Below are positions 8,084 through 57,389 of a stretch of 64,000 nt of DNA, piece by piece. The number at the start of each line of letters is the position of its first letter. The first letter of the stretch is position 1. A program made the translations under genes and the position numbers. Origin of the DNA: Cyanidioschyzon merolae (Eukaryota); assembly GCA_000091205.1 (NCBI GenBank), contig AP006495.2. One strand, written 5' to 3'. The notes under the pieces are model-generated. The model had not been told where the DNA came from, searched no databases, and was given only the letters and a program-made list of their open reading frames with translations.

Positions 8084-9283
8084 TCATTCCAACTTGAACA
8101 GAATCTTTCCCTTTCGATTCGGGGCAAACTGTGCCCGAAAAGCATCCTCATACTGTTCGAGTGTATATTCTTGCTCAACTTGCGGTCGCATATCACCTTT
8201 GCGAATCATTTCAAACGTTTCCTCGAAAATCGTCGGCTTCTGGTTCTTCAACCAAGTTGTAAGCGAGAAACCGCGGACAACGATGCCCTTAAAGATCAGA
8301 TCACTGTTCATGACACACGTCGGTTTGCCGCTCTGCAGCCCGTATGCCATGAAAAGGCCGCCCGGGGAGAGCGCTGCCAGCGCAGCCGAGCCCATCTCGC
8401 CGCCAACAGCGTCAACGACGGCAGCGAGCCCGCGTCCATTCGTTATCGCGTTGAGACGCTCGGCGAGGTTCGGCTCCTCGCCAAAAACGATCACCTCGTC
8501 TGCCCCGAGCTGTTTCAGTTCCGCAACAGATGCTTTCGATCGCACAAAGTTCACCGTGCACAAGCCCCGCTTTTTCGCCAGCTGGATGAACATACGACCG
8601 AGAGTCGAGTTCGCCGCTGTCTGTCCGATCCACGGGTTGCCGTGAACCGGCGCCTCCGCTTCGATCTGCTCCAACATGCCGACCACGGTCAGCGGATTCA
8701 CTATCAATTGAGCGGCCTCTTTATCACCGATATCCTGTGGTACTTTGATACAGAGGTTTTCGTCCACCACGAGGTACTGTTGCCAGCAGCCCGAGCGATC
8801 CGCAAGTGTTGGAATCACACGCGTCCCGACAGGAAGCGAGGTCGCTGGACCTTGCGCCACAACTTCTCCGACACCCTCGAGGCCGCCAACAAACCCAGGA
8901 CGACGTTCGCGCACTGCGGCTACCCCAGGGTACACGCCTTGGACGACAAACACGTCGGCAGGATGGAGGCATGCATACCGCATCTTCACGAGCACCTGAC
9001 CCGGACCAGGCTTCGGGACAGAAGCAGTGGTGTTCAACCTAAGTGCTCCCTTCAGCGGATCGCCAAAACTTACAATTTCCAGAGCTTTCTGCGTTGACGG
9101 TATATGTGTTGCCATAGAGTCTGCAAATCGGTTGCGTCTTCCAGCAACGACACCGCCAGGCCTGTGTCTGGAATCAATTTTGGGGCAGGGAGTGCGCACA
9201 TCAGGCTGGCCGCGTCCACCCGCCACACCTGGACCCGTGCCGCGGTATGCGAATGAATCTGGACTGTGGGAGGCAGCGTGCAT
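8084..9283 (-). CDS. Medium-chain dehydrogenase/reductase resembling mitochondrial trans-2-enoyl-CoA reductase (MECR/ETR1). The likely true start is the internal Met at 9115 (MATHIPSTQKALEI...).
   Basis: MDR-fold collinearity: an N-terminal GroES-like region, then a Rossmann region (AAVVDAVGGEMGSA). The 5' 170 nt of the ORF overlap family I element copy A, which argues for the downstream start. Confidence 0.7.
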   Translation of the reverse strand: MHAASHSPDSFAYRGTGPGVAGGRGQPDVRTPCPKIDSRHRPGGVVAGRRNRFADSMATHIPSTQKALEIVSFGDPLKGALRLNTTASVPKPGPGQVLVKMRYACLHPADVFVVQGVYPGVAAVRERRPGFVGGLEGVGEVVAQGPATSLPVGTRVIPTLADRSGCWQQYLVVDENLCIKVPQDIGDKEAAQLIVNPLTVVGMLEQIEAEAPVHGNPWIGQTAANSTLGRMFIQLAKKRGLCTVNFVRSKASVAELKQLGADEVIVFGEEPNLAERLNAITNGRGLAAVVDAVGGEMGSAALAALSPGGLFMAYGLQSGKPTCVMNSDLIFKGIVVRGFSLTTWLKNQKPTIFEETFEMIRKGDMRPQVEQEYTLEQYEDAFRAQFAPNRKGKILFKLE

Positions 9284-9950
9284 TCGTCAACTTTTTCAAT
9301 CAGTTGAGCGCCTTGAAGGAGGATCAAAGTCAGAGGCTCGTAGTAGCGTACGGAGCAGGGCGCTGGAAGACCCAAAAAGGGACGAGGCCAGCTCCAACGA
9401 CAAGAATGTATGAGGCGTGCACACGGCGTTTCGTTACGATACCGATAGATGAGTTCCGAATATCCTATACACACCATGAACTGGGATGCACACTTCAGAG
9501 GGTCGAGATGGAAACGTGCCAACGGAGCCCTGAGGATATAAAAAAGCACGGACCGCTGACGGAAGAGCAAATGGAAAGGAGGGCGAAAGTTCGTGCATTG
9601 CTTGCACTAGTGAGTACAACCAATGATAGTAAGAAACGTATGGAGTTCGTGAATCGTGACTTTAATCCTGCTATCAATATAAGGAAATGTGTGGTGCTGG
9701 AGACGAGACCTCCAGAGTAGACAAGAGAGAATTTTACTGGACAACCTCTCAAGGTTGAATCATATGAGAAAAAGCTGGAAGCAGTAGTGGGTGACCCGTC
9801 GAACAAGGCCGCGAGGCGTCTGCACATCAGTTGGTGACTTCTTGTCTAGGGCGCGGTTTCTCGCCACTACTGCACACCGCCGGCGACGTCGTTCGACTGC
9901 GAGAGGCGTTCGGCGGTGTACGAGGGGTGTGTGCTTTAAACGCCAAGCTT
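9170..9950 (+). mobile_element. Family I Fanzor/TnpB-like element, copy A. A 5'-truncated 3' fragment running from the RuvC-II region through the zinc finger and RuvC-III into the 3' non-coding tail. Boundaries are approximate.
   Basis: ORF 9247..9720 translates ...RLVVAYGAGRW...TTRMYEACTRRFVTIPIDEFRISYTHHELGC...KKRMEFVNRDFNPAINIRKC. The RuvC-III-like motif NRDFNPAINI sits at 9652..9681. The nucleotide sequence is collinear with copy B, 20386..21200 on the minus strand, including about 230 nt beyond the stop codon. Confidence 0.6.
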
Positions 9951-10162
9951 GTTTCGCTGCTTTTTTTTTGAAAACTCGACCATCGCTGGGACCCAGCACT
10001 GGCAAGGATCAATGCCGTGTGTCTGCGAACGCTCTGTCCTCTAAAAGTTCGTGGTTTCGTCTGGAAATCCAAACGAGCTTCCGTCACGGGCGGGGAACGT
10101 GTCACTCGCTTCGAAGAGGTGAACGCCGTGAACCAGAGGACGGAAAACGGTGCAAGCTTCCT

Positions 10163-16733: not shown

Positions 16734-17867
16734 TTTGATTCTTGTGAAAGATGTTGTTACCGTGCGCATACACTGTAAAACAGGTCGCCCGTATTCGTTC
16801 CGCGCTTTTCGTAAAGACTCTGGACACACAACCGTAGCACACGTTCTGCACCGGTCTGTTGGGACGTCGTCACCAGGCGGGGGCCTTGTTTGCGTACGCA
16901 AGGCTTAACTTTAGCAATGGCAATGCATTTCGACGCCCAGGTTGCAGCAGCAGATACGAATGGCGCCCTCGGTAGGTGCCCCGCTTGCGTCACGAGATAA
17001 ACAGAAGCGGTATGCATCATCCGATGCGGGGCCTATGTACCGGTCTCAGGGTCTGTATCGAGGACGATACCTTGAACCACGGAGCGCTTCGTGTTACCAG
17101 CACGCCGTCACGTCTCCAGCGAGCAGTTTGTCGGCTGTGGTGCGGATAGGGGGCGCCTTCGCACCGCTCGGCCCTGGCCTCGTGACGCAAAGCCAGTTCA
17201 GAGCGCTGCTGCACCGATTGCAGTCGATGGTGTGCATGGTAAAAAACAGCCGTTATTGGGCAATCGCCAACAAATATCGCACGTTTTCACAGCACAATTG
17301 TGAAGCTTCCCAATACGCAAGCCGTATACGCCGTCACCGTTACCGCCACGAACAGCTACTCCAGACCGAGCAGCGGGGAAATTGCGGTACGCGAGCACCG
17401 ACGCTACCTGCATGTCGTATTGAAACGCAACAGTGGACTGTATGATTTTGTTTCCGAGCTCTGATCTTTTTCCGAGCCATTCTTAGATGTAAAGCGTCGA
17501 CATTCGAAGCGCAGCGAGATGGCTTACGGGCGCATTCGTAGCTTTCGGGTTCTAGATTGTCTTTTTCGAGTGGCTCTCGGTACGCTTTGGTGCTCGAATT
17601 CGTTGCGGCACCGGAATCTAGATGACTCACGACGCCCCCGAACACGGGTTCTCAAACTAACCGGTATCATTATCAGGTTCCTACGTACCAGCATGCACTC
17701 GTCTCCTTTCCGTGCAGGTCGCATGCTCATATGCCACCTGCTGAATGTTTTCGATCTTTCTGATTTATGGTGTAACTCGTGGGCGCAGCCATTCGCGCCG
17801 TTGGATTGACGACGAAATAAATCTTGGACGTCATCGCTTGGCGAGCTGTTCACGAGCGCATGCCGAA

Positions 17868-18576
17868 AGCTCCCTGAGCTCGGCACTTCAAATAATGGAT
17901 TTCGTTCGAAAGACCAATCTCCCGATCTTTGCGGTCATCCACGAAACGGCGTTCGACGGCAGTATGCTACATCTCATTGGATTTTCTCCGAAACGCTCGT
18001 GTATATTCTGTTTGCTTGAACGTGGGTTTTGGACTTGAGTCACCGCTGCGACCGCTTCCGGTGGAGCCTGCGTTATGGATAAGCACGGACGGAGCGTAGA
18101 CGGACCAGAATATCTAGAGCGCTTCTTCAACCTGAATTTTCCTTGCGGTGGTTTTCTTTTATCATGGAAATCATCGCGTTTCACAAATCATTCATGGAAT
18201 AGAGCAGCGTGCACTCGCGCGTGCAGCGGAGAGCGTATTCACCAAAGCTGACTTTCCAGAACATAACTGTTCTCGTCCGGTACTGTATTGGACCTGGAAA
18301 CGGAGAAGGACATGTCCCGAGCGAAAAAGCTCGCTTTCACGCGCCTCAGAGCGGCACTCGGAGAGGGAATTGCGATGCATGTATGTGAAGACCTGATCAC
18401 GACCGAATGGAACCGCTACGAGAGACGCTCCGAAGCAGTGTGCAAAAAAATGAAAATGGGAAGCGACGCATCGTTCGCAACTTCAGCTTCTGCAAGACAT
18501 GCGAAAACGGAAGCTGTAATCCGCAAAATCGGGACTTGAACGCTGCCATCGACATCGTTCGTTTGCCGGCAACGGG
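17868..18576 (+). mobile_element. Family II TnpB/Fanzor-like relic, copy G. A shared 5' module is followed by a degenerate C-terminal zinc finger and RuvC-III. It is frameshifted at an A7 run.
   Basis: The 5' module 17868..18060 is homologous at nucleotide level to 33200.., 37497.., 57460.. and 61085... Translation gives ...EDLITTEWNRYERR..., then after a frameshift ...RNFSFCKTCENGSCNPQNRDLNAAIDIVRL* (motif 18517..18546, stop 18574). Confidence 0.5.
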
Positions 18577-19068
18577 ACCAGGCTGAAAACAGTGACTGAA
18601 GTATTGAAAGCCAAAGATAGACAGGGGGAAAGAAACAAGTTACAGGAAAAGTCCGCAACGGCTAGTGTTGATGTCAGTGGCAAAGGAGTCAAAGTTGAGC
18701 ATGTTCGCTCGAGTTCGTAGATCCGTTCCATTGTACGCCAATGTGGATGTAGTCCTGGGTGTCGTGCGTGCGTGCGCCGTGGAAACTCGTGCCACGGCAC
18801 TTGCGTGTCAGAAAGCGCGGGAACCCGTGGAACGCTTGCTTTCAGAGAAAATCGAGGTTTGAGGCTTTCATCTCTTCACGCCAAGACAGAGATTCCATAG
18901 GTAATTTTTCATTGCAAGGTACGATCGTTTTCACCACGGACTTTCATAGCCAATCAAGTATTTAGCGCTTTCGCGGTACATTTGGACCACGTTTCCGTAT
19001 TCAACTTTTCGTTGCAGTCCAAATAGTGCCGCGCGGTTTGGCGTTGGAGGCGGCTCGGGTAATGTATC

Positions 19069-19764: not shown

Positions 19765-20405
19765 CGAGTGTCACTGACGCATCGTGCGCATGGTGCAAAC
19801 GTGGTGTAAACGCTTTGCGACGGTCACCGCTGGTCATTCTAAGCTCCAGGCGACACACAGAGGGGATTTGGATCCGCAGGCAGCAATGGTTTCGATGAAG
19901 CACAACGAGTCTGCTGCGCAGCAGCAGCGCGCGTTCACCTCAGCCTAGCACCCATCAGACCAGTTCAGCGCCACCCATCTGCCCGAACCGGGACACTCGC
20001 TTTTAAAGGCCTTTTCCGCTGCTCGAGGTACCACTCACCAAGGCGACGCCCAAGTACCGTACCCAGTCCAAGCATGAGTCCTGTAACTAAAGGGTACAGA
20101 ACGACTTCTTTCGCCCTTTCGAGCGCGCGCTGCGCTCGTGAACGATCGCCCGGTGCCATGGCCCTAGGTTCAGTGAGCAACAAGCCGCTCCGGCGAAAGC
20201 GCTTTCGATTAGTAGTCTAGGCACTTTTGTCGTGCGCACGTGCCGTCTTACAAGAGCGCCCCGAAGCAGCGACCTAAACGCAGTGCGTTGGCAAACGGAA
20301 CGCGATCGAGCCTGCTTTCCGCCGCTCGCTCGATTTCAGAGACCACGGACTGACCACGAATAGGCTGCCACGCAGATACCTGTGCGTGGACGTCTTTACA
20401 AGAAC

Positions 20406-22703
20406 TCAGCTCGATGATGGGGCAAACTTCGCACGAACCAGCAAGAAACGCCGTTCTAAAGTAGAACGTCGTCGGCGGTGTACAGTAGTAGCGACCGGTG
20501 CGCCTTGGACACCAAGTCGCCTACTGACGTGCAGACGCTTCCTAGGCTTTTTCGACCGGCCGCCTACTACTGCTTCCAATTGTGTCTCATATAGTAAAAC
20601 CTTAAGAGGTTGTCCAACAAAATTCTCGCGTGTCATCTCTGGAGGTCTCGTCTCCAACACCGCACATCTCCTTATATTGATGGCGGTAATAAAATCTCGG
20701 TTCACAAAATCCATCCGTTTCGTGCCGTTGGGAGTTGTACTTACTAATGCAAGCAGTCCACGAACTTTCGCTCTCCTTTCCATTTGCTCTTCCGTCAGCT
20801 GTCTATACTTTGCTATATCCTCAGGGCTCCTCTGGCACTTTTCCATCTCGACTCTCTGAAGTGTTAACCCCTGTTCATGGTGTGTGTGCTATGTTCGAAA
20901 CTCAACTACAGGTATCGTAACGAAACGCCTTGCACACTCCTTGTACATTCTTGTCGTTGGAGCTGGTGTAGTGCCTTTCTTGGGCACCCATCGTCCTGCT
21001 CCGTACGCTACGACGAGCCTCTGACTTTCCTCCTCCTTCAGGGCGCTCAACTCATTCAAAAAATTCGCGAACGCCCGCTGCCTCCCACCGTATAGATTCA
21101 TTCGCAAACGAGCCCACGGGGGTTGGTATACTCCTCCCATAGCGCATCCCGGTGCGCCATATGCGAACTTCCATGAATTTCCGGACAGCTCCAAAGTCCG
21201 CTCCTCGGCTCGTCACCTTACTCAAAGCTTCCGGGCGATCCTTCATTCCTGCATTCCGTTTCTCGATTTTCTTCCTCGCATTCATGATTCCCGATTCTCG
21301 ATAGTATCTCGCTCTCGAGATCCTCAAAAAAGACGCATGTCTTTCTGACGCAAGTTACCATCAGCACCATCTTCCGTACGCTTCGGTGCTACGATGGTTA
21401 TGATATTCGTATTCCCAGGGTCCGCGCCAACGACAAGGTCGTTATCCTGCACTTTCTGCGCGGCAGGATCCTCCTCCTTCTCATCTTTATGCATCGCCGC
21501 GCCAACGACAAAGTCGTTAGCTTGCACCTCCTGCGTCGCAGCATCCTCCTCTTTGTTTTCTTCATGCTTCGCCGCGCCAACGACAAGGTCGTTATCCTGC
21601 GCTTTCTGTGTCGCGGGACCCGCCTCTTTGTTTTCTTCATGCTTCGTGACGGGCGCAGCCGATGGAGGGACTGGACGATCTTTCTTCAACCTCCGATAGT
21701 GCACACACATGGCTACTCCATCGGGTTCGATCAACCCAGTGAATACCTTTTGTTTGCTCACTTTCAGACGTTTGAAATCGAAGATGCTCATCCAGTACGT
21801 CTCCCGGTTTCCGCCGGTGAAGTCCTCCCTGCTAACATCGAACTCCGGACAGATATCCCTCGTGATGCCGTAAAGGATTCTGGAGTTGATAGTCACAAAA
21901 TGTGACTTGATCTTGCACATTGGAACCACGTTGAAGTGCTTCCCCATTAGGACAGCCTTCCGTCTCTCCCACTCTTCCTTTGACTCTTCACTCAGCTTCA
22001 TCTCCGCTTTGCGTTCGAGCTCTCGGTCCAGAAACACAAAATAGCGCAGAACGAGGCGATCGTATCTTTCCCTATCTTTTTTCAACGCTGATATCTTGTC
22101 TGTTGGATTCGCCAGCCCCAGTACCGTACGATGCTCTTCGATAACCGCACGGATGACGGAATTCTCATTCGTGCTCTGGTTTGACTCCTTGTTGTCAACG
22201 AATTCGACCTCATTTCCATAGTTTCGATCGTTCGTGATGCCATTGATAATCGCCCATATTCCTTTGCGAGACAGGCCCCGGTAGAGTGCAAACACGGCGC
22301 GTATCATGAAACGTTCGAGGTTCATTCTGAAATGGTTCTTCAGATTCGTCAGGTACTTCATCGCCCCATATGTGTAGATATCCGCGTCACCCCTGTATTG
22401 GGTACCCTCGAAGAGGAATTCCGCGAAGTTTTCGTGGAGGACTTTCACCCGCTCATTTTCCCTCCGCGCTTCCTCTGTACCAAGCATCAGCTGACGAATA
22501 AAGGTCTTATCGAAAAACTCGTCCGGAATCTCGACCGTTTCCATGTTCGTCACGTAGAGGTACATCTCCTTCACCAAATGCATCAGTCCTGAAGATGCCT
22601 TTATCCTACTCATGGGGTACAACTCGAGAAGGTTTTTGATGGCCTCTCGCAACTTTTCCTTGTACGGATCCTTGATATATTTAAGAACACAGACTTTCAC
22701 CAC
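20406..22703 (-). pseudogene. Family I Fanzor/TnpB-like nuclease gene, copy B. It is near full length, about 640 aa in total, but is split into three reading frames by at least two frameshifts.
   Basis: Frame 1, 22703..21324, is 459 aa with an N-terminal helical region and ends in ...[19 protein letters not shown] (RuvC-I-like GxDPG, with the Asp near 21420). Frame 3, 21194..20889, reads RQRAFANFLNELSALKEEESQRLVVAYGAGRW...YKECARRFVTIPVVEFRT. Frame 4, 20846..20406, reads MEKCQRSPED...KRMDFVNRDFITAINIRRC (RuvC-III-like, 20673..20702). Compared with intact copy A, 14 codons (SYTHHELGCTLQRV) are lost at the 20846/20889 junction. Confidence 0.7.
21420..21644 (-). repeat. 75-nt (25-aa) tandem triplication inside the Fanzor-like ORF, immediately N-terminal to the RuvC-I aspartate.
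   Basis: Protein repeats [50 protein letters not shown] and [25 protein letters not shown]. Only the third unit keeps the Asp of GADPG. Confidence 0.6.
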
Positions 22704-23199
22704 TATCTCGTTGTACAGTTGTCTTTCTTGCCGCCTTCGACGTAGAACCTCCCCCTTTTTGAATCTTCATCACTTCCTGTTCCTCTTTGCTCCGCCTTGT
22801 TTATCTTTTTTTCCGGCAGCGGGTGATATCGGCCCTCCGGGATCCTCCACTTCCATTTCCATGACTTTCCTTTTAATTTTTTGAAAACGAACGCTCTTTG
22901 AACGCTTCTGTTATATACTTCGAAAAAACACTTGAATATACTCAATTGAGGGTCGGAATAGGATGGAACAGAAAACCTATACTTTGCTACGACCTCAACG
23001 CGAATACAACTTTTACAGTAGAATAGCACGCCAATGATCAGGATCACTGTTCCCCTCAAGAGCGACCAGAGCGTCGTGTCTCGTGCCCGCCGGATCTGCC
23101 AGGTGCGCGTGCACGCGCAGCGGCTGACCTGCGCCCCGCCGCCGATCAGGAGATTGCTTCTGGATATGTCTATCTCAAAGCGTGATAACCTGTTGCTGA

Positions 23200-25569: not shown

Positions 25570-27000
25570 GTAGAGGCGCTTCTGTTGATAGTCTTTCAAC
25601 TCAATTTTGTTTCATCGCGGCTACGGTATATAGGAGGAGGACGAAATCACTAGGTAATGTTCTGTATAGATTGTCGACGAATTGCATACGGCATATGTAT
25701 TCTTCACTGAACAATGCAATGATGATTGCATTGCTCCTCGATGTCAACCATACTGCTATACTCAGATGCTTGACGAGCACTGAAAGAAACAAGTATATGC
25801 GCTCCGGGCCGAAACCTGATATTCTCAAAGCCTGCTTGCAATCAGTGATAGAAAACGACCAGTTGATCAATTTAAGGGAAGCAAATGCGTCCATAGTAGC
25901 CACCACGGGCGTCTCTGTTTCTCAACAGCTTATTCGCGTGATCCTGAAAACACCGGGATCCAATCGCAATAAAGTGCTAGTTCATTCACGGCCAGCTTCC
26001 ACCGAAATCGCAGGCACGGTGTTCCTGGAACGTCGCGATCGGTATGAAGCACAGGAACATCAGTTTGTTTTCTCACTCGATGAGACTTGCTTCAAACGAG
26101 ACAATCGCAGTGCAGATGAATACTTGCTGAGCGGGAGCCCGTTGCACGTACGCTCGAAATCGTAGAGAACGTCGACATCATCATCTGTTCTAGCTGCGGT
26201 GGATTCATTTGGCTGCCTCAGTTCCGCTGAAGAGAACACTCATGCAGCAGCGCCCTCTTTTTGTCGAGTCATCGAAGACTTGTCCCAAACGTCTGGTGAA
26301 GTCCTTCTATTGGACATAGTGGTATTTAGCCATTCTGCTTCAGTTCGAGCATTTGCCAATTCTATCGACGGGTAGAGCTGGTTTCATTCCTTCTTCTCAC
26401 CTGTGTTTCATTCCCATAGAAGGAGAGTTTTGCGTCCTGAATCGTCACGACCGCTCCACCGGGCGAATAGATGAAGCGTTCAGCACATGGTGACCAACCG
26501 GGGCACATTTGGTCTTTATTCCGCATGTGCTGCTCGATGCGGGAAGGTCGTCATCTCAGGCTATAAACAAGTGCGTTCATTTTCGAAAAATCTAAGGGAC
26601 GAGCTGGAATATACACCCTAGGATGTTGAGTTGGAGCGAGGCCAGCGGAGCGTTTCGTCGACGGATCAGCACGAAGAGCTGACAGAGCACCCAATGGCAC
26701 AGCGTGCACGAGTTCGTGGTCTCCTATCATTGGTGAGATCAACCAGCGGCAACAAACGCATGGAGTCCATGAACCGAGACCTCAACGCTGGTATCAATAT
26801 CAGGAGATGCTTGTGCTGAATGCGAGGCACGCAGCGCTGCGGCAAGCTAACTTTGTTGGGCAGCCTCACAGCGTCGGAGTGTATATGGAGAAACTGAAAC
26901 CGATACCAGAACCCTGTAAGAAAAGGCTGAGAGACGTCTGCGGGTGGATATTCATTTACACGATATTGTGGCGAAACGGGTTTGCTGCACTGACGTAACG
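25570..27000 (+). mobile_element. Family I composite element, copy C. An IS630/Tc1/mariner-like transposase N-terminal fragment is fused to an internally deleted Fanzor 3' module.
   Basis: ORF 25671..26165 reads ...GPKPDILKACLQSVIENDQLINLREANASIVATTGVSVSQQLIRVILKTPG...RRDRYEAQEHQFVFSLDETCF, an HTH followed by the first DDE-type Asp context. ORF 26631..26819 reads ...KRMESMNRDLNAGINIRRC (26772..26801). The 3' conserved block 26938..26995 ends ...TTGCTGCACTGAC and is truncated. The whole copy is collinear with copy F at nucleotide level. Confidence 0.6.
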
Positions 27001-38245: not shown

Positions 38246-39142
38246 AGGAGCGACCGGCGTATTGAATACCACGGATAAGAGCGTATGAAAGGAAGCAGTC
38301 ACAGAAAAAGCCCGTCAAGACTAGTGCTGATAACAGTGGCAAGCGATACATATTTTAGTCAGTGCGCGCGAATTCGCAAAGCGGACCCCTTCTACTCTGT
38401 CCTGACTTGTATTTGTATAAAGAAGTAGTGAACACGTCGCCCGAGTCAATGGAGACGCGGGAGTCGCGAGCTGCTGTTTCCATAGCGAACGTTGCAAGCG
38501 ATGCGAAAGGCACCACTTCGCGCATAGATATCCAGGTTTGCACTTCGATTCTTCAGAAATGAGCGGTCTCATCCCGTCGTTGCGGAAGTAGTACACTGAT
38601 TCTAGCTTCCTCCAGTAGGCTCCAGGTACGAAGCAGCCTATGCTTTGGGAAAGGTGTTCGACCTTTGGACCCGCAGTCGCTTTTGAAACCTGCTAGCAAA
38701 GCCGCTCACCGCATACGAAGCCGCGTATTCTCTGCGAATAAAAAGTCCGACGTTCAGGCATGAAACCGTTTCGAAACTTTCCAGCGGAGCCTGCATTTCC
38801 AGTAGAACTCAACGAGACGCTAAGACCGGCTACATATATGGCTGGGTACTCGCCCGGTTAGCAGGTACGCTCGCTGAACCTGTGCCCGTTCACGACGCGT
38901 TTCAGTCCCTAGCGCTTGTCGACAGCGGTGCTCGTGAGCAGCAGCTCGTTACAGCGCACATTCAATGAGACATGTAGACTGCTGCAGTCCCGAGCAACGC
39001 CCTTGCCAAGTAACGGGTACCGAGATCCACCGTTTGTACTGCCGCAGCGCCTTGTCGCTGACGTCCAGCTCGCTGGAACCCAACACCGCTTTCAGGGCGA
39101 GCGCGGCGACGCCCTAGTTCGCGTTCCAGCGAGCCGGTCTCT

Positions 39143-42100: not shown

Positions 42101-42370
42101 AATGCGGTATCGGAAACCGAGTCGATTATCCTGCAGCCACATTTGATGGTGTCGAATCGTTGGCTCCTGGGTGCCGTGCTTGCCTCAATGGCACTGCAGC
42201 TGATCGTGCTTGAGAGTCCTCTGTCGCAGACAGCTTTTGGAGTCGAGCGCCTTTCTCTTGGGGATTGGCTATTTGTGGTGGGCGCCTCCGTTCCCGTCAT
42301 TGCCGTTGATGAAGTGTTCAAATTCTTTCTGAGAAGAGCGCGGGCGAAACGGTCGAGTCAGGGTTCGTGA
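39143..42370 (+). CDS. P-type Ca2+-transporting ATPase of the type IIA (SERCA-like) family. The start codon is uncertain; the first roughly 130 codons may be a leader or non-coding.
   Basis: ICSDKTGTLTQNRM phosphorylation site. TM4 AAVPEGLPAVITTCLALGTQRM. KGAPE, MITGDH and MTGDGVNDAPALAAADVGVAMG hinge motifs. Ten predicted TM segments. A poly-Ser insertion sits in the actuator/P-domain linker. Confidence 0.85.
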   Translation: MLGSSGASIQRTREVQSPKRRGDVRSFGHAKAAGVRSPQVTGFVPELCPRWGACPARQTRRRHTAAHCVVRPSSVYPRAVCSFVSSSWRLALKHIETASTGSVQRRLLGLQASSDSKDSTGAPTARLEPVFQTAEHVAAHYAVEIEAGLSTSRARELLRIHGPNALPEPEPQTLVQRVLKQFDDRLVQILLVAAGISFTLAATAKERTASAFLEPVIILTILLLNAGIGAILESRADESIRAMRAYMSEEAVVVRDQGARSCIPARELVPGDVIELRAGDLVPADARVVRLLSNTLQVDESILTGESLAVDKYVEAMEQAKDARGTGRLPYQEQRNMLFTGSVLTRGRCLAIVVATGENTAVGTIRGQLVRRSSSSSSSSASRKNGETELATEATTETPLVEQMNRLGDLLTNLVLGICAAVFALNLVQEIQQVPLAMIISQQQVDLSRILEQVIESFKFSVALAVAAVPEGLPAVITTCLALGTQRMSKRNVLIRSLPCIETLGCTSVICSDKTGTLTQNRMRVVELVPVHDSLKEALSLVLALCSEATLDGRGDPTELALLRAGEELRPSDSNRAFWESHARILQVNEFDRVRKRMSVVVTCSVPVLSTANTNDHKSTYTYSLVKGAPETVLEQCSFVEPDAVAYWSEQTRERSRSGLRCIALAIRECTSDAAQDSAEKQLTFLGLAALQDPPRPGVREAIARCRQAGIRVVMITGDHALTASAIAAQVGILDTSMIADAAAEKSGTLTPTVVLGADLESNRYTPDQVAAARVFARVEPKHKLQIVETLQRTRSEVVAMTGDGVNDAPALAAADVGVAMGTGTQVAKAAADMVIVDDNFATIVSAVEEGRSIYANMRQFIRYLLSSNIGEVIAVLVSSLWLHVPEILSPAQLLWVNLITDGLPAIALSFNPTDPEAMQRPPRRRDEPFLRTQGGLGGDLARYLAIGTYVGLACVFGYRGFIDNTVQARSVAMSVLVTAEMANALNAVSETESIILQPHLMVSNRWLLGAVLASMALQLIVLESPLSQTAFGVERLSLGDWLFVVGASVPVIAVDEVFKFFLRRARAKRSSQGS
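40260..40283 (+). repeat. (AGC)8 microsatellite inside the Ca-ATPase CDS.
   Basis: AGCAGCAGCAGCAGCAGCAGCAGC encodes SSSSSSSS. Confidence 0.9.
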
Positions 42371-44887: not shown

Positions 44888-45229
44888 GGTTTTTTATCCG
44901 CTGCATATTCGTGCTGCTAGCTTTGAAGCGAAATGAGGTCTAAATAGGCGGCTTTCGAAGAGAAAACAGCGACGACTACACGAATGCGGATACAGATACC
45001 CACTTGTACTAATTGTACCAATATTAAGGTCTATTAGATCCCATTTGTAGAGGATGTGATGGGTGCCGCACCCCGCACAGGTCCAGCGGCCGCGTTTTCG
45101 TTGGATACGCTCGCGTGCGCTCGGCCACCGGGGAAGCAACGAAAGCGCGCTCTATGTTCCTTCATGTCAATGGTACTCCATATCCTGGTGCGTCTCATCA
45201 TATGCTTTTTTGCGGTTTATAGAAGATTT

Positions 45230-45761
45230 GTTCGAAATGCATTCATTTGAAGAAACAGAGAGAATCCAAGGAAAATTATAGACTGAAATTCGGGGATCCA
45301 GAAGGGCCCTCATCACCGCGTTATACCAGCGAACGAAAAATCCCCTAGTCGCCGACCATCGAGCGAAGAGGAACAAGTGACGAAGAAGCGGAAGCAAAAG
45401 GGAGATAGTCGCCAAAACGGTGATCTCTCGACCGGACGATGACCAGACTCTAGAGGCACATAGGGAACGAGAACCAGGAATCCATGCAAAGGTGACTTCA
45501 ACAGGAGCGAAGAAACGCAAAGAGTTCGTGAGCCGCGACGGAAACGCTGCTATCAATAGCAGACGATTTGCGGCGCTGAACGCGAGAGCCGACGAGCTGA
45601 TGCGATCCAAAATTGCGAGGCAGCGTCTCAGGATCCATGTGTGCCTGGATAACACTGACCCCGATACCAGGATGCGGGTGGAAACACACTGGGAGGCGTC
45701 TGCGCGCGGGTACTCATTTTGCCTCCATTGTCATAGAACGTTTATCGTTTTCCTGACCATA
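45230..45761 (+). mobile_element. Family I element, copy D. A 3' fragment followed by TA.
   Basis: ...KKRKEFVSRDGNAAINSRRF (45531..45560). Terminal block GTCTGCGCGCGGGTACTCATTTTGCCTCCATTGTCATAGAACGTTTATCGTTTTCCTGACCATA, then TA at 45762..45763. Confidence 0.55.
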
Positions 45762-47916
45762 TATGGGCAATCACGAATGGGCAAACCGCTGTTCTCGAAG
45801 AAGCGACAGGTGAGCAAGACCGCTGCATTAGCCAGTACGGCTATTTGCACGGGTGATCGCCTACAAATCGCCAAACATACCGGAGCGCTTCGCATCGCAG
45901 GCAACGTAAAAGCAATGTGTGGCTTCTGTTTGCGACATTCTTCTATTCTGCTCTATGACGACGTCGATTTCCATCACGAATGAGCTGTCAAGGAGTACGT
46001 GACAAAAACTGCTCTCGAGCTGCTCCTGGTGAGACCCTTTTTTTCCGATTCAAGCCAGTCGAAGGCGACATCTCTGTTGCCAAACACCGTTTTTGAAGCT
46101 CACGGATCCATCGACGAGTCGTCCGCATCCATGACACTGTCATCCGACGAATTGCTCTTCGGAAAGTCATTCTCTTCCTGAACCATTCCTGAGCTGGTGT
46201 CTCTCAGCTATGCTTGTTTGCGGGAGGGAGCGAAAATGCGCGCCTCGGTCCGTGAACATCGCCCTTGGGAGCCGCTAAAGAGATTGATGCTCAGGAATCG
46301 TGGAGATATATGTAGGAGAAACAGAGTTCTGGAACAAGTTCCACTCAGTGCGTCGAAGGAGATGCTTTAAACGCTCCAGACAGCACATGAGACTCTGTTC
46401 GATTCGCTTGCAGTTTCGGTTGTATGGAGGCAAGAGTCAGGCATTCGCCAACTTGTGCGATAACTTGCAAAAAAGCAAATGGTCGATATCTCGAGTTGTC
46501 ATGCTGTAGTCAATGGCACTGGACGTGCAGTAACGCGCGAGCGCTGCACTCCGATTCCTTTGACGACAGCGTACATGGAGTGCAGGAATCGGCGCTTTCA
46601 GATTTCCTTCCATGAGTTCAGGACGACACCATTGCATCACGGGCGCGGGTGCATGTTGAATCAGGTACAGATGGAGAGCGTGAAACGGATCCGAATGCAC
46701 GAGATGGTGCTCACTAAGCTGAGCGGACGCCAGCTGACGGGGCGATCCCAGGTCCAAGGCTTGCTGTGAGGTGACGCTACCAGCAAACCTGCACACAAGC
46801 ACGTTCTACACCGAGACCCAAAACGCCTCGACCATCATCCGGGGATATCTTTTGCGTCCGAAGCATCCAGCGGCCATATGTCGAGCAAGCCTTCGAGGGT
46901 ATCGTTTGGTGATCAGTGTGGGCATTTTGCTGAAACGCGGAAGGCATGCGATGAAGAAAATCAGTAACCAGGAGAGAGGGGAATGGATTCTTTCGGGAGC
47001 GAGGCACTGGTATTGGACGGTCAGCGATCGAGCACGATTGATCACTATATACATCCGCAACGATTTTCCTTGGCAACTAGTGAACATTAGCAATGTTCAA
47101 TTACTCGATATCACCGTGCATATGCTCGACGCGAACGGCCGTACGATCGCCCCAGACTGCACTGTTACCGTACGACGTTCGTGGTAGCGTCTCCCGCGCT
47201 TTCGCAAGCGATCAGATTTCGCGAGACACCTACCGGGAAGCCTGATCCAGCCTCTACATCATGCCTGGATTCTGGACTGGGGATGGAGGAACGAGGACGC
47301 ATCACCATGTGCGGGGCGCTCCATACTCAACAAACTGGAAGCTTTTGCGCATCCGTCGGAATCTGGTCCGATGCACTGATCCAGTACACACTAAAATAAA
47401 GCAGTGACGATGGAGGGCGGTGCCTTTGACACCGTAAAGCTCGCTTGACAGCGACCGCATGGACAAGAGGGTGAAGTGCGCGGTTCCGCGGCGCGCTCGC
47501 CACGGGAAATGGCGCCCCAAGTGAAAAAGCGGTCAGAACACGTGCTCATACAAGGTCGAATGCGTTGGTTGCTCCCTCGGTTACCGACCAAAACCGCTTA
47601 CCACGATGGCACTTTGCATATCGATGATGTTTATCCAACGTTAGTGACAATGACGCAGTGCAGCGAATCATCTAGAGAATATATCTCTGGTTCCAGTGCA
47701 GACACGCCATCATGAATGCATTCAGTGATGCCCGTCACAATGCGCTTCGCTGGGAACACGCTATCCCCATTCGATGAAGCGCGGTACGGCAGGCCACGTA
47801 GACCTTGAAAACCCTTGCATTTGCTTGGCGCTGCAACACGAATCCGTTCAGGCATCGGAAAAGTGAACCGCTGCAATTCGGCATAGCATGCAGACCTTGA
47901 ACGCTGTCACGAGACG

Positions 47917-49044: not shown

Positions 49045-49419
49045 CTAGGCAAAGAAGCGCTTTTTCTTGTCCCCAGCGCCACCTGCTCTGCGCTCGGGAG
49101 CTTCTGGAGACTATGAATGAAAAGCACGCACAGCACGCTCCTCGGCTCGCAGCGGTTTACCTGAATATTTGGCGTAGCTGTAGTGTGAGCACGTTTTACA
49201 CGCAAAAAAACCTCAGGAAAAGCGAACGTGATAAGTTGTCACGTTACATGGAAATCCGTGTTTCCGTTGATAGACTGCTTTGGGTAGCTTTATGTCATGG
49301 GGATCTGTTTGTGATGCGGCGACGACGACGACGACGACGCGCGCGGCATCTCGTACGGATACACGCTTGCAGTATTTCATCTCAATTGGGTTCCATCATC
49401 ACGCACGTGTCGTCAAATG

Positions 49420-49979
49420 CTATTTCGCGGTTTATTGCAGAGACATTCAAAGCGCGTTCCGTGGAAGGAATAAAACATCCCAGGGGAATGCACGGACCAA
49501 GTCGGGGACCCCGAAGGATCGTCCTCGCCAGGTGCCAGAAAAAACGAAAAATATCCTCTTGTCATCGAGTTTAGAGCGAAGAAGAGCAAGTGACAAAGAA
49601 GAAAAAGATGATGATTCGTGTTGGTAGGCGATTCAACGTGTACGCACGACGGAACGATGACGAGACTATGGTGGCACAGAGGGAACGAGTGCTAGGAATC
49701 CTTACAAGGATGACTTCAAGCATCCTCAATGCACGCAGTGAGCTCGTGAACCGCGACTTGAACACTGCTATCAATACCAGACGATTTTCGGTGCTGAACA
49801 CGAAACCCCAAGAGCTGACGCGAGCCAACTTCGTGGAGCAGCCTCTGATACTCAAAATGTGTAAGGAGAAGCTGGAGCCGATAGCAGGCGGCCGGTCAAA
49901 AAATGGTTGGGTGACGTCTGCGGGTGGGTATTCATATACCCTACATGATCGTGCGAAAACTTTTGTTTCAGTGACCACA
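49420..49979 (+). mobile_element. Family I element, copy E. A 3' fragment followed by TA. Its right end lies 50 bp upstream of the next gene's ATG.
   Basis: ...SELVNRDLNTAINTRRF (49749..49778). Conserved terminal block GTCTGCGGGTGGGTATTCATATACCCTACATGATCGTGCGAAAACTTTTGTTTCAGTGACCACA, then TA at 49980..49981. Confidence 0.6.
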
Positions 49980-50028
49980 TAGTGCATGTGAATAAATCTG
50001 TTCTGATGTATAGCTCTTCGGGATCCGC

Positions 50029-54876: not shown

Positions 54877-55146
54877 TCACTTGGCTCCCGCTTCTGAAGT
54901 TGTCGCTACTGCTTGCTCCGCTTGCCCCTCCTCCTCAGGTTGCACGCCGATTTGTTCCATTAGGTCAGTGATGCTCTTTTCCAGTTCATCAATGCGGCTC
55001 GACATGTCTTCGATTCGCGATAAGATCGTGGAACTCATGCTCTCAAACCGTGACTGCATCTGTTCCAAGAGCTTTTGGACGTACTCAGTGAGATCCTCAA
55101 CCGGCTCCTGCAACTCTGACGTATTTGTCTTGTTTTCTGTTGCCAT
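54877..55146 (-). CDS. Heat shock factor-binding protein 1 (HSBP1).
   Basis: MATENKTNTSELQEPVEDLTEYVQKLLEQMQSRFESMSSTILSRIEDMSSRIDELEKSITDLMEQIGV matches the HSBP1 heptad coiled-coil (..[38 protein letters not shown]..). Start taken at the Met at 55146. Confidence 0.8.
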   Translation of the reverse strand: MATENKTNTSELQEPVEDLTEYVQKLLEQMQSRFESMSSTILSRIEDMSSRIDELEKSITDLMEQIGVQPEEEGQAEQAVATTSEAGAK

Positions 55147-55929
55147 CGTGTCTGAAAGGTGCCTATAAAAAACGTTCTCGCGCGCGAGCAAGGCGACGAA
55201 CGCTCAGCGCAAGGTCGTCGTCGACAAGTGCGTGCAGGCGTACGCGCGCCGGCTCGCGCTTCGATCGCTGGCGGGTTCCAGAGGGCGCGTATACCGCTGG
55301 TGCCTGCCCGGCGCCTTGGCTGGCTGGATCGCCCCAGGTCGACTGCCTCCCAGCCGCTCTTGCTATCTTGTCATTGGTGCAGGGTCGATGACGCGTACGA
55401 GACCCGCCGGATTACGCTGGCGTAGCCGATGATGCGTACACGAACTGCGCCAAGAGCCGTTTGATGCTCGTGCGTACCACGACGCCTCGAGGGGTGTCGC
55501 TTTGAAAAAGGCACGCTCAATAGGTCAAGCGGGTGTCTGGATGCCGAACTAAACACGTCAAGCTCCGCGGTGGATCCGGTGGCACGCTCAGTGCAAGGCG
55601 CGGTTGCCACACGCAGGCCAGGATACCAAGCAACTGTGAACAGTTCGCGCGCTTCCCAGCTTGAGATATTTTTTGGAACACTTTCTTCGATGTGCAGTCT
55701 CGATATCCAAAGTGGAACAGTAGGGGCTAACGAATGCCTCAATTGTTTTAGGAGCCTCGACCGTCCTTTCGAAGTTGCCTTGCTGCTAGAGCTTGTTGCG
55801 TCACCGAAATGAAAATGATTCGCAATGCCTCCGAACAAGGATTCGTAAACGAACCGATAGCTTTCTTTCATTCATCCGGACACGCCTCCACTATTCTCCT
55901 TTTCTGACGTGTGAGATGGTAAAATCATG

Positions 55930-57389
55930 CATTGTTCAAATGTTCGATCTTTATTTTTCAACTCAACTCGATCCTATCCACACTGACTGCAGTCGCATGC
56001 TTTCTCGCACTGTATAGCAGCAGATCAAGATCAAGATGCCATGTACCATACAGACGGTAGAAGAATTGCCTATAGGATCCATTCTTTACTGGACAGTGCA
56101 AGGGGATTGCATTTCTATCTCAGGTCAGTCATGTAACAGTACTCAAATTGTTGAAAGACTCGGCAAGAAAGAATAAGATGCGGTCAACGCCAAAACCGAT
56201 ACGCTTACGGACCGCTCGCGGTCCATGGTAGGAAAACGACCCGTTGATTACCTTACGGAAAGCAAAAATCAACGATAGTGTACACCACCACTGGCGTCTC
56301 TGCTTCCCAATAGCTTGTTCGTGTGGTCCTGAGAACACCTGGAAACACTTGTAAAACAGTCCCAGGTCATGCACGGCCATTCGCCACAGAATTCGCAACT
56401 GCAGAAGAGTTCCCGGAGCTTTGCGATCGGTATGAAGCAAATGGACAACGCTTTATTCTTTCAGTCGGTTCGATCTGCTTCGGACGAACCAGTCGGAGCT
56501 TGTATGGGTATTCGCATCGAGGCAGATCGTTGTATGTACGATCGAACTGGAAGCGAACGATGGCGCCATCTGTTCTAGTTTTAATGGGTTCATTGAGCGA
56601 CCTCTGTCTTGCTCGTGGAGCAGAAACATCCAACAGCACCAACCGCCTTGTCGAATAATAGAAGACTCTTCGCTGACGTACGGCGACTTTATTGGTCAAC
56701 GTGGCATTTGACAATCCGCCTTGCGTTCGAGCTTTTGGGAATTCTATCGGAATAGAGCTGATTTTCATTCCTCCGTACGCTCTTTAATTCAACCGCAACG
56801 AAAGAGTGCTTTCTACTGTGAAACGTAATCATCGGTCCACCGGGCGAGTCGCCGAAGCATCCAGCACACTGTGACACACCCGGGCACATTTCGTGGTCCT
56901 TCCGCAGGTCCTTCACCTTTGGGGAAGGTCCTCACCTAAACGCATAAAATAGTGCATTCATTTTCAGGAAATAAAAAATCGATGGTATGAGTTTGGATGC
57001 ACACTTCAGAACAAAGAGATGGAGAAGAGCCAGCGGAGCGCTTCGGTGATAGAAAAGCACCGAGAGCTGACACAGAACCAAATGACACAGAGTGAACGAG
57101 TTCTAGGAATCCTTGCATTGGTGGGTTCACGCAGCGACGATAAACGCATGGAGTTCGTGATACGAGACCTCAACGCTGCCATCAATATCCGACGATATGC
57201 AGAGCTGAAGACGAAACCCGCAGAGCTGTAACGATCCAACTTTATGAGGCGACCTATTAGGATCGAAGTTTGCAACGAGAAACTGAAACCGACAACAAGC
57301 AGCTGATCGAAAACGACTGGGTGGCGTCTGCACGTGGATACGCATCTACCCTACATAATCGTGCGACAATTTTTGTTCCACTGACCACA
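55930..57389 (+). mobile_element. Family I composite element, copy F: a Tc1/mariner-like N-terminal fragment plus an internally deleted Fanzor 3' module. Followed by TA.
   Basis: Nucleotide sequence collinear with copy C. ORF 56323..56658 reads ...LRTPGNTCKTVPGHARPFATEFATAEEFPELCDRYEANGQRF... ORF 57019..57231 reads MEKSQRSASV...KRMEFVIRDLNAAINIRRY (57160..57189). Terminal block GTCTGCACGTGGATACGCATCTACCCTACATAATCGTGCGACAATTTTTGTTCCACTGACCACA, then TA at 57390..57391. Confidence 0.6.

What the first reader, a model, noticed from the sequence alone, without database searches (positions are those of the whole stretch)
9170..57389. Six-member family of TnpB/Fanzor-like nuclease elements in a eukaryotic nuclear context
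Six loci translate to the same protein segment. They are A 9170..9950 +, B 20386..23050 -, C 25570..27000 +, D 45230..45761 +, E 49420..49979 +, and F 55930..57389 +. The shared segment is a Cys/His-containing linker (YKECARRFV..EFRxSYTHHELGC...C), then KRMEFVNRDFNPAINIRKC. The xRDxNAAINI block is the hallmark RuvC-III motif of IS200/IS605 TnpB, Cas12 and their eukaryotic relatives, the Fanzor proteins, and the catalytic Asp is retained in five of six copies. The flanking genes are unambiguously eukaryotic (eRF1, Sm-E, HSBP1, SERCA). These are therefore eukaryotic TnpB homologues, which may encode programmable RNA-guided nucleases, at about one copy per 10 kb.
Basis: partly seen in the sequence, partly recalled or inferred. 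Interest (0 to 1): 0.85.

Follow-up and report, generated by a model that had tools for sequence, protein, structure and literature searches.

The report
Decayed Fanzor1 transposons in red alga

Summary
All six loci, and at least two more, encode the same C-terminal Fanzor segment, far above chance.

The window is nuclear DNA of Cyanidioschyzon merolae 10D: its eRF1 and SERCA proteins are 100% identical to BAM80981.1 and BAM80984.1.

The repeats are the published Fanzor1 family CMe-1A (Bao & Jurka 2013; about 150 copies, 3169-bp consensus, 734-aa protein).
- Copy B matches consensus 658-3169 at 85% identity.
- Copy A matches consensus 2506-3153 at 88% identity.
- The others are older relatives, 67-78% identical. 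Three are roughly 560-bp internal-deletion "mini" elements. Two are 1.35-kb elements in which a degenerate IS630/Tc1-mariner-like transposase precedes a Fanzor 3' remnant.

Homology to Fanzor1 holds by profile (PDB Fanzor1, E=2e-14) and by predicted fold (SpuFz1, E=1e-17, TM 0.62-0.68). Pfam's TnpB models miss the family.

Every copy here is a pseudogene or a fragment, so none is a working nuclease.

Side findings:
- This clade (Pfam DUF8286) keeps the rewired D-E-D RuvC triad but lacks the C4 zinc ribbon.
- A second, apparently undescribed chimeric family (DDE_3 transposase plus Fanzor C-terminus) is also present.

Verdict: correct interpretation, already known, low interest.

The parts
20449..23110 (-). 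Copy B: a near-complete CMe-1A core element (consensus 658-3169). It lacks the 5' 635-bp TE-N2_CMe module. The Fanzor1 ORF is a pseudogene. The start ATG is at 22862, with in-frame stops at 22772-22767, 21326-21324 and 20891-20889 and frameshifts near 21336 and 21125.
   Evidence: blastn to the published consensus gives 85% identity. Three-frame translation. tblastn with CMe-1 covers residues 1-731 at 67% identity, with 8 stops in the read-through. HMM positions 16-605 are covered.
20449..20471 (-). 3'-terminal hairpin of copy B (CGACGTTCTA-CTT-TAGAACGGCG), ending exactly at the consensus terminus. Presumed end of the omegaRNA scaffold or a terminal DNA hairpin.
   Evidence: Sequence. The pattern is unique in the window. 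The same position forms a 10-bp palindrome in 45 related copies. Folding of the 3' 172 nt gives z=-3.4. There is no covariation support.
21422..21646 (-). A 75-bp tandem repeat, 3 units, inside the linker upstream of RuvC-I of copy B. It encodes [18 protein letters not shown]. The published consensus has one unit.
   Evidence: TRF, self-blast, consensus mapping.
9245..9893 (+). Copy A: a 5'-truncated CMe-1A (consensus 2506-3153), covering RuvC-II through RuvC-III and the C-terminal tail.
   Evidence: 88% identity to the consensus. 81% identity to B. HMM E=1e-50. tblastn covers residues 535-730 at 83% identity with 1 stop.
6829..7410 (-). The 5' UTR and first codons (consensus ~790-1010) are joined to the last ~240 bp of the gene (consensus ~2845-3085).
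   Evidence: nhmmer with the element HMM gives two collinear pieces. Three-way alignment with D and E. tblastn E=5e-15.
25629..26959 (+). Copy C: a 1.35-kb composite. A degenerate IS630/Tc1-mariner-like DDE transposase (25674-26594) is followed in the same orientation by a Fanzor 3' remnant (about 26463-26941, including NRDLNAGINI).
   Evidence: 68% identity to F over 1353 bp. Translation. Pfam DDE_3 E=0.0025. hhalign of the transposase profile to a DDE_3-positive consensus gives probability 94.8%. Fanzor HMM E=5e-10.
45154..45728 (+). Copy D: an old internal-deletion 'mini' element, with 5' part 45154-45405 and 3' part 45476-45721.
   Evidence: nhmmer, alignment, HMM E=6e-8.
46396..46938 (+).
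   Evidence: HMM E=1.2e-12. tblastn E=6e-12.
49368..49995 (+). Copy E: an old internal-deletion 'mini' element, with 5' part 49368-49674 and 3' part 49677-49921, plus the old-family 3' tail ending ...TGACCACATA.
   Evidence: nhmmer, alignments, HMM E=8e-11.
56013..57405 (+). Copy F: a 1.35-kb composite like C. The transposase remnant is at 56106-56972 and the Fanzor 3' remnant at 56986-57348.
   Evidence: HMM E=1e-10. tblastn E=4e-27.
17600..18720 (+). Second family, copy 1: a ~1.17-kb chimeric element. A truncated DDE_3 transposase is followed by a Fanzor/TnpB C-terminal half that retains the CxxC..CxxC zinc ribbon and NRDLNAAIDI.
   Evidence: The 13-copy consensus gives Pfam DDE_3 E=8.8e-11 and Cas12f1-like_TNB E=7.4e-6. 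hhalign to the CMe-1 clade gives probability 96.9%.
57413..58220 (+). Second family, copy 2, lying directly after F.
   Evidence: blastn to J61 gives 65% identity over 813 bp.
60870..61905 (+). Second family, copy 3 (KCHRCE ... NREFKAAINI).

Best explanation
The window is nuclear DNA of the red alga Cyanidioschyzon merolae 10D. The repeats are fossils of its known Fanzor1-carrying transposon lineage.

A and B belong to the published CMe-1A family: a 3.2-kb element with one ORF of 734 aa and no TIRs or TSDs.

C to G are older relatives that survive as deletion derivatives:
- G, D and E are ~560-bp minis that keep the 5' UTR and the gene's 3' end.
- C and F are 1.35-kb composites in which an IS630/Tc1-mariner-type transposase remnant sits upstream of the Fanzor 3' end.

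When intact, the protein would act like other Fanzor1 enzymes (this step is inferred). It would be imported into the nucleus via a basic N-terminus. It would bind an omegaRNA transcribed from the gene's 3' end through the element's right terminus. It would then use a rewired RuvC site to cut DNA matching the flanking-derived guide, which helps the element persist. That site consists of the Asp of the DPG motif, the alternative Glu of the DEFRT motif and the Asp of the NRDxNAA motif.

In this window all copies are inactive pseudogenes or fragments sitting in intergenic spacers.
For: Shown:
1. Host identity. SERCA ORF 39143-42370 has exactly the sequence of BAM80984.1, on a contig of 866,983 bp. 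The eRF1 is 457/457 identical to BAM80981.1.
2. Identity with CMe-1A. B is 85% identical to consensus 658-3169 and ends exactly at the consensus terminus. A is 88% identical. The CMe-1 protein from the paper's supplement carries the same motifs. The paper describes about 150 copies, about 80% identical to the consensus.
3. Fanzor1 homology. The profile hits PDB PpFz1 at E=2.3e-14, SpuFz1 at 3.5e-9 and GtFz1 at 0.042. The AF2 model has pLDDT 82 and pTM 0.76. Foldseek hits SpuFz1 at E=1.4e-17 with TM 0.62/0.68, followed by PpFz, GtFz, Cas12f and Fanzor2.
4. Catalytic residues are invariant in 17 diverse members. The canonical RuvC-II Glu is replaced by Gly/Ala (AYGAG) and an alternative Glu lies ~33 residues downstream. 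This matches the Fanzor rearrangement described in PMC10530073.
5. Decay. Stops and frameshifts are present. The minis and composites are mapped.
6. Transposase link. The same Tnp-then-Fanzor order is seen in L054 and L062. Pfam DDE_3 matches 3 of 8 copies, best E=3.5e-4. hhalign to a DDE_3-positive consensus gives probability 94.8%.

Inferred: the omegaRNA. The 3' 170 nt fold with z=-2.3 (consensus) and z=-3.4 (B), and hairpin positions are conserved in 45 copies.
Against: - Pfam TnpB/Cas12f models do not reach threshold for this clade: E=0.5 for the consensus protein, best 0.0085 for P0057.
- The C4 zinc ribbon that the founding paper calls strictly conserved is absent.
- No covariation supports the proposed 3' RNA structure: 87.5% of positions are paired against 87.2% in shuffles, and RNAalifold finds no consensus.
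- No activity data exist for any member of this clade.
- No TIRs or unambiguous TA duplications were found to prove mariner-type mobilisation.
Confidence: 0.93

Rival explanations
1. One or more copies in this window are live loci that encode a programmable RNA-guided nuclease.
For: The RuvC-III Asp is kept in every copy. B retains a 459-aa open segment and a complete 3' terminus. The 2013 paper states that some CMe-1A copies elsewhere in the genome are intact.
Against: - B has two stops after codon 30, a stop before RuvC-I's downstream region, two frameshifts and a stop inside the DEFRT motif region.
- All other copies cover at most 200 residues of a 734-residue protein.
- No gene with the 459-aa product is on record.
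Confidence: 0.03
2. The similarity is a chance or convergent short motif (xRDxNAAINI) in unrelated sequences, not TnpB/Fanzor homology.
For: Single-sequence Pfam and PDB searches give nothing.
Against: The collinear profile match to solved Fanzor1 covers about 450 positions. The whole-chain fold match has E=1e-17. There is nucleotide-level identity to a published Fanzor1 consensus.
Confidence: 0.005
3. The copies are remnants of an integrated giant-virus genome rather than a cellular transposon family. Fanzors are common in NCLDVs.
For: Fanzors occur in large dsDNA viruses. Remote relatives exist in GVMAG contigs.
Against: - Viral contigs hold only 29-35% identical C-terminal matches and no member of this clade.
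- The copies are dispersed singly between ordinary host genes.
- The many diverged copies and deletion derivatives are typical of intragenomic transposition.
Confidence: 0.02
4. The short copies persist because the retained 3' module (gene end plus terminus) is itself functional. For example, they could be omegaRNA-only, MITE-like non-autonomous elements or regulatory RNAs, rather than neutral debris.
For: - All fragments keep the same 3' module, and three minis share nearly the same deletion junction, which implies amplification after the deletion.
- 5'-truncated copies that keep the 3' end are also common in Yellowstone relatives.
- The 3' region folds better than shuffled sequence.
Against: - The minis are only 55-70% identical to each other, with no sign of constraint.
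- There is no covariation and no Rfam match.
- No intact partner nuclease of their own subfamily was found.
Confidence: 0.1

Closest known systems
CMe-1A / CMe-1 Fanzor1 of Cyanidioschyzon merolae (Bao & Jurka 2013, Mob DNA 4:12; PMC3627910)
   Same: It is the same thing. A and B align to the published 3169-bp consensus at 85-88% identity and end at or near its terminus. The protein motifs match (MEKEVEDPGGP..., VDEFRTSYTHHELGC, NRDFNAAINI). There are no TIRs or TSDs.
   Different: B lacks the 5' 635-bp TE-N2_CMe module and has three 75-bp repeat units where the consensus has one. C to G are older, more divergent relatives (67-78% identity) with architectures not described in that paper: minis and transposase-linked composites.
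Structurally solved Fanzor1 nucleases (SpuFz1 8gkh/9ceu, PpFz1 9cf0, GtFz1 9cer)
   Same: The overall fold matches (TM 0.55-0.68). The order of WED/REC/RuvC/TNB domains is the same. The RuvC triad is rewired in the same way, with Gly at the canonical RuvC-II position and an alternative Glu in the D-E-[FY]-[RK]-T-S motif.
   Different: Sequence identity is only 11-16%. The CCCC zinc finger of the NUC/TNB domain, present in SpuFz1 and ISDra2 TnpB, is missing in this clade. Nothing in this clade has been tested for activity, and no omegaRNA has been demonstrated.
Mariner/Tc1-borne Fanzor1 elements (e.g. PUl-1 of Pythium ultimum, PGv-1)
   Same: A DDE transposase of the IS630/Tc1-mariner type lies upstream of Fanzor in the same orientation. 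This is seen in C, F, L054, L062 and the second family.
   Different: Here the transposases are all degenerate. No TIRs or clear TA duplications could be defined. The young CMe-1A copies carry no transposase at all.
Bacterial IS200/IS605 TnpB and Cas12f
   Same: They share a RuvC nuclease with a D..E..D triad, and the NRDxNAAxNI RuvC-III motif. The guide RNA is expected to come from the 3' end of the gene and the element's right end. A subterminal or terminal hairpin is present.
   Different: Cas12f and Fanzor2 match only weakly by fold (E=1e-5 to 1e-3, TM about 0.2-0.3). There is no TnpA (Y1 or serine) partner. The protein has a eukaryotic host, a long N-terminal extension and a basic N-terminus.

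Membership tests
Fanzor1 (TnpB superfamily) | Nucleotide or protein identity with a named Fanzor1 family | tested here: met
   A and B are 88% and 85% identical to the published CMe-1A consensus. tblastn with CMe-1 hits all loci.
Fanzor1 (TnpB superfamily) | RuvC-I Asp (D-P/T-G motif) | tested here: met
   Invariant in 17 diverse members. Present in B as GADPG. Absent from all the shorter fragments because that region is deleted.
Fanzor1 (TnpB superfamily) | Rewired RuvC-II: the canonical Glu replaced by Gly/Pro, with an alternative conserved Glu downstream | tested here: met
   AYG(A/S)(G/A) sits at the canonical site, and an invariant Glu lies in (D)E[FY]R[TS] about 33 residues later. The rule is taken from PMC10530073. 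B has V-E-F-R-T followed by a stop codon.
Fanzor1 (TnpB superfamily) | RuvC-III R-D-x-N-A-A motif | tested here: met
   Invariant in the clade. The Asp is kept in A to G.
Fanzor1 (TnpB superfamily) | C4 zinc ribbon between [TS][TS] and RD (called 'strictly conserved' in Bao & Jurka 2013; CCCC in SpuFz1 and ISDra2 TnpB) | tested here: not met
   The ligand positions are H/D/F/N, variable, C/N/D/L, and variable. Of 105 clade representatives, none has two CxxC motifs and 96 have none. The feature is met only in the second family's consensus. The family is nevertheless a named Fanzor1, so this is best read as a clade-specific loss.
Fanzor1 (TnpB superfamily) | Significant sequence-profile match to experimentally characterised Fanzor1 | tested here: met
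   PpFz1 E=2.3e-14, SpuFz1 E=3.5e-9 and GtFz1 E=0.042, all collinear.
Fanzor1 (TnpB superfamily) | Fanzor/TnpB fold | tested here: met
   The AF2 model of P0047 has pLDDT 82.2. The top seven Foldseek hits are all Fanzor1, with E=1e-17 to 1e-15. The model is of an intact relative that is 40% identical to B, not of a window copy.
Fanzor1 (TnpB superfamily) | Match to Pfam TnpB models (PF07282 Cas12f1-like_TNB / OrfB_Zn_ribbon; PF01385) | tested here: not met
   E=0.5 for the CMe-1 consensus and 0.0085 for P0057, both below the 26.3-bit cutoff. Pfam files the clade as DUF8286.
Fanzor1 (TnpB superfamily) | omegaRNA encoded at the gene's 3' end and the right element end | tested here: inconclusive
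   The 3' module and terminal hairpin are conserved. Folding z-scores are -2.3 and -3.4. There is no covariation signal, no RNAalifold consensus and no Rfam family.
Fanzor1 (TnpB superfamily) | RNA-guided, TAM-dependent DNA cleavage | not testable with these tools
   This needs biochemistry. No member of this clade appears among the tested Fanzors in the papers read.
Fanzor1 (TnpB superfamily) | Intact coding capacity at the loci in question | tested here: not met
   B contains stops and frameshifts, and all other copies are fragments. None of the 80 related Yellowstone loci has an open frame longer than 520 aa spanning both motifs.
IS630/Tc1-mariner transposons (as carrier of C, F and the second family) | DDE transposase of the DDE_3 type | tested here: met
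   The second-family consensus scores PF13358 E=8.8e-11, 42.3 bits against a 28.6-bit cutoff. The C/F-type copies are sub-threshold on their own (best E=3.5e-4, 3 of 8), but they are homologous to that consensus by hhalign (probability 94.8%, E=5e-8). A PAYSSSLNRIE motif is visible in L060.
IS630/Tc1-mariner transposons (as carrier of C, F and the second family) | Terminal inverted repeats flanked by TA duplications | tested here: inconclusive
   No terminal inverted repeats were found in C, F or B. The old-family 3' ends all abut a TA (…CACATA), but the 5' ends are not defined.
IS200/IS605 or IS607 (prokaryote-type TnpB carriers) | An associated TnpA (HUH Y1 or serine recombinase) | tested here: not met
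   The 3169-bp consensus holds only the Fanzor ORF, at 906-3110. No such ORF lies next to the copies.
Helitron | 5'-TC ... CTRR-3' ends with a subterminal 3' hairpin, and RepHel | tested here: not met
   A 3' hairpin exists, but the consensus starts CGATGAC and ends GAAAGGCG. No RepHel was seen.

The most novel reading that the evidence does not exclude
Two side results may not be in the literature I could read.

(a) The CMe-1 lineage belongs to a large Fanzor1 clade, filed in Pfam only as DUF8286. It has at least 721 clusters at 50% identity with E<=1e-30. The clade keeps the D-E-D RuvC triad but has lost the C4 zinc ribbon that is regarded as strictly conserved in TnpB and Fanzor. If intact members are active, they would be zinc-ribbon-independent RNA-guided nucleases, some from a 42 C, pH 2 alga.

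(b) The window holds an undescribed second family: a ~1.17-kb chimera of a DDE_3 transposase and a canonical-zinc-ribbon Fanzor C-terminus. Together with the transposase-linked old copies C and F, this suggests the so far 'unclassified' C. merolae Fanzor elements descend from IS630/Tc1-mariner-borne ancestors.
Probability: 0.3. Interest if true: 0.4.

Novelty: already known. Interest (0 to 1): 0.15.

Why it matters
The finding matters little as a discovery. Fanzor1 in C. merolae (CMe-1A, about 150 copies) was reported in the paper that named Fanzor, and the copies in this window are dead.

It is useful as a calibration point in three ways:
- The standard Pfam test would have produced a false negative, because Pfam files this clade as DUF8286.
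- The clade's loss of the zinc ribbon, and the transposase-linked relatives, are small leads for people who mine Fanzors for compact or thermotolerant genome editors, or who classify Cyanidiales transposons.

Tried and rejected
- Pfam scans of single window ORFs, of the stitched B protein and of the published consensus gave no TnpB hit at threshold.
- phmmer of stitched B against PDB gave only noise.
- Rfam and tRNA scans of the window found nothing.
- An eRF1 homologue search to identify the host was uninformative, because the protein is too conserved. The host was resolved only by an exact-sequence cluster look-up.
- RNAalifold on 45 aligned 3' ends gave no meaningful consensus.
- A hand-specified four-helix structure showed no covariation beyond shuffles. 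The copies are too similar to each other for this test.
- Inverted-repeat searches found no TIRs for B, C or F.
- A homologue search with the C-type transposase returned only three fragmentary metagenome proteins with no annotation. A profile search of it against PDB gave nothing.
- I considered Helitron-like or IS605-like single-strand mobilisation because of the terminal 3' hairpin. I rejected it for lack of RepHel or TnpA and because the ends do not match.
- I considered a giant-virus origin and rejected it.
- The 5' end of the element looked ambiguous in Yellowstone relatives, with three alternative upstream modules, one in both orientations. This is explained by the published observation that the 5' 635 bp is a separate element, TE-N2_CMe.

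Full report
**Observation.** ORF listing and three-frame translation show that locus B (minus strand, about 20.4-23.1 kb) carries a long but broken reading frame. It contains GADPG, VVAYGAG, EFRT and NRDFITAINI, and locus A repeats its last ~200 codons. tblastn with the stitched B protein recovered all six reported loci, plus one at 6878-7192 (-) and one at 46405-46766 (+). I then built an HMM from 17 diverse homologues and searched it against the six-frame translation. It gave E=1e-50 for A, 1.5e-106 for B, 5e-10 for C, 6e-8 for D, 8e-11 for E and 1e-10 for F. The shared segment is therefore real and far beyond chance. The RuvC-III Asp is present in every copy, not five of six.

**Is it TnpB/Fanzor?** Single-sequence tests fail. 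Pfam gives nothing for the window ORFs, the stitched B protein or even the published consensus protein, and phmmer against PDB gives noise. A database search found 66 relatives, many of them full-length proteins of 600-700 aa, which Pfam labels only as PF26935/DUF8286.
- A profile of these relatives hits solved Fanzor1 proteins collinearly: Parasitella Fanzor1 E=2.3e-14, Spizellomyces Fanzor1 E=3.5e-9, Guillardia Fanzor1 E=0.042. The DPG motif aligns to DPGRRD and DEFRTS...NRDxNAA aligns to DEFRTSS...NRDQAA.
- An AlphaFold2 model of the intact member P0047 (pLDDT 82, pTM 0.76) matches SpuFz1, PpFz and GtFz as its top seven Foldseek hits (E=1e-17 to 1e-15, TM up to 0.62/0.68). Cas12f and Fanzor2 follow far behind.
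- The RuvC-I Asp, an alternative Glu in (D)EFR(T/S) and the RuvC-III Asp are invariant, while the canonical RuvC-II Glu is Gly/Ala. This is the rearrangement reported for Fanzors (PMC10530073).

**Whose genome, and is it known?** The SERCA ORF (39143-42370) is letter-for-letter the calcium ATPase BAM80984.1 of Cyanidioschyzon merolae 10D, on an 866,983-bp record. The eRF1 is 457/457 identical to BAM80981.1. The other neighbours are ordinary eukaryotic housekeeping genes.

Bao & Jurka (2013), the paper that named Fanzor, lists one Fanzor1 family in C. merolae. This family, CMe-1A, has about 150 copies that are about 80% identical to a ~3-kb consensus, with no TIRs or TSDs. Its first 635 bp are identical to a separate element, TE-N2_CMe. 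Their supplementary CMe-1 protein (734 aa) and 3169-bp consensus match the window. B aligns to consensus 658-3169 at 85% identity and ends exactly at the consensus terminus. A aligns to consensus 2506-3153 at 88% identity. The finding is therefore correct but already published.

**What the individual copies are.**
- *B* is a core element without the TE-N2 module. It has three copies of a 75-bp unit, at least four in-frame stops and two frameshifts.
- *A* is 5'-truncated.
- *The rest* are much older, 67-78% identical to the consensus. A nucleotide HMM built from 22 full-length Yellowstone relatives shows the following.
  - G (6829-7410), D (45154-45728) and E (49368-49995) each join the 5' UTR and first codons to the last ~240 bp of the gene at nearly the same junction. 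They are descendants of one ~560-bp deletion derivative that amplified.
  - C (25629-26959) and F (56013-57405) are 68% identical over 1.35 kb.
- *The first ~0.9 kb of C and F* encodes a degenerate transposase with DETxF, LLLDN and, in relatives, PAYSSSLNRIE motifs.
  - Three of eight copies match Pfam DDE_3, with best E=3.5e-4.
  - Their profile is homologous to a DDE_3-positive consensus (hhalign probability 94.8%).
  - The same transposase-then-Fanzor order occurs in related contigs L054 and L062.
- *Termini.* No TIRs were found. The old family ends in ...TGACCACATA, always abutting a TA.
- *Location.* All the copies sit in the longer intergenic spacers.

**Mechanism.** In the wider set of 45 related 3' ends, the ORF runs to a conserved TAG about 60-75 nt before the terminus. 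The last ~170 nt are strongly conserved and end in a 10-bp terminal palindrome. B keeps this hairpin at 20449-20471. The consensus and B fold better than shuffled sequence, with z=-2.3 and z=-3.4. This fits the Fanzor/TnpB rule that the omegaRNA is transcribed from the transposon end and may overlap the gene's stop codon (PMC10432273). However, covariation is not detectable: 87.5% of positions are paired against 87.2% in shuffles, and RNAalifold finds no consensus. The omegaRNA therefore remains an inference. Nuclease activity has not been tested for any member of the clade.

**Side results.**
1. The four Cys of the TNB zinc ribbon, present in SpuFz1 and ISDra2 TnpB and called strictly conserved in 2013, are absent throughout this clade. 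None of 105 representatives has two CxxC motifs. The clade is large: 721 clusters at E<=1e-30.
2. A second repeat family of ~1.17 kb lies at 17600-18720, 57413-58220 and 60870-61905, with further fragments.
   - Its 13-copy consensus is a truncated DDE_3 transposase (PF13358 E=8.8e-11, above threshold).
   - The transposase is followed by a Fanzor C-terminal half with intact CxxC...CxxC and NRDFNAAINI (PF07282 E=7.4e-6, just above threshold).
   - That half is homologous to the CMe-1 clade (hhalign probability 96.9%).
   - The 2013 paper lists only one Fanzor family for this alga.
3. Viral contigs contain only remote relatives.

**Verdict.** The feature is the known CMe-1A Fanzor1 family and its older relatives, all inactive in this window. 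Interest is low. The zinc-ribbon loss and the transposase-linked families are minor leads.

Noticed in passing
window 17600-18720 (+), 57413-58220 (+), 60870-61905 (+); fragments at 33185-33353, 37257-37372, 38181-38376, 55795-55902: A second dispersed repeat family of ~1.17 kb. Its consensus is a truncated IS630/Tc1-mariner DDE_3 transposase fused to a Fanzor/TnpB C-terminal half that keeps the CxxC..CxxC zinc ribbon and NRDFNAAINI. It is not listed among the C. merolae Fanzor families in the 2013 paper.
   Followed up: partly
clade-wide (alignment A1; P0220-P0366); in the window, B 20889-20960 and A 9540-9610: The CMe-1/DUF8286 Fanzor1 clade lacks the C4 zinc-ribbon ligands. None of 105 representatives has two CxxC motifs between the DEFRT and NRD motifs, yet the D-E-D triad is invariant.
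   Followed up: partly
window 21422-21646 (-): A 75-bp tandem repeat, 3 units at 83% identity, lies in the linker before RuvC-I of copy B. The unit number varies: 1 in the published consensus and 4 in P0001.
   Followed up: yes
window 29-295 (-): Another fragment of the C/F-type transposase, 51% identical at the protein level over 90 residues, sits at the very start of the window.
   Followed up: no
L004-L083, the 10-12 nt immediately 3' of the element terminus (alignment A3, columns 325-336): Independent insertions in Yellowstone Cyanidioschyzon-like contigs share a TTGATGGTGCG-like or TTTGGTG-like 3' flank. This could be a target-site preference, which would make the guides similar, or a few extra element bases beyond the published terminus.
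   Followed up: no
L009, L011, L014, L022, L024, L043 and others, upstream of the Fanzor core: In the Yellowstone relatives the Fanzor core is preceded by at least three alternative 5' modules. One is TE-N2_CMe-like and occurs in both orientations and independently of Fanzor. This suggests nested or adjacent insertion rather than a single fixed 5' end.
   Followed up: partly
Pfam PF26935 (DUF8286), on P0001 and others: Pfam annotates this Fanzor1 clade only as a domain of unknown function. The TnpB/Cas12f TNB model misses it, so automated annotation will not call these proteins Fanzor.
   Followed up: yes
window, all long intergenic spacers (6.8-7.4, 9.2-9.9, 17.6-18.7, 20.4-23.1, 25.6-27.0, 45.2-46.9, 49.4-50.0, 56.0-58.2, 60.9-61.9 kb): Nearly every long intergenic spacer in this 64-kb stretch of an otherwise very compact genome is occupied by a Fanzor-related relic. 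This is a much higher local density than the published ~150 copies per genome would predict.
   Followed up: no
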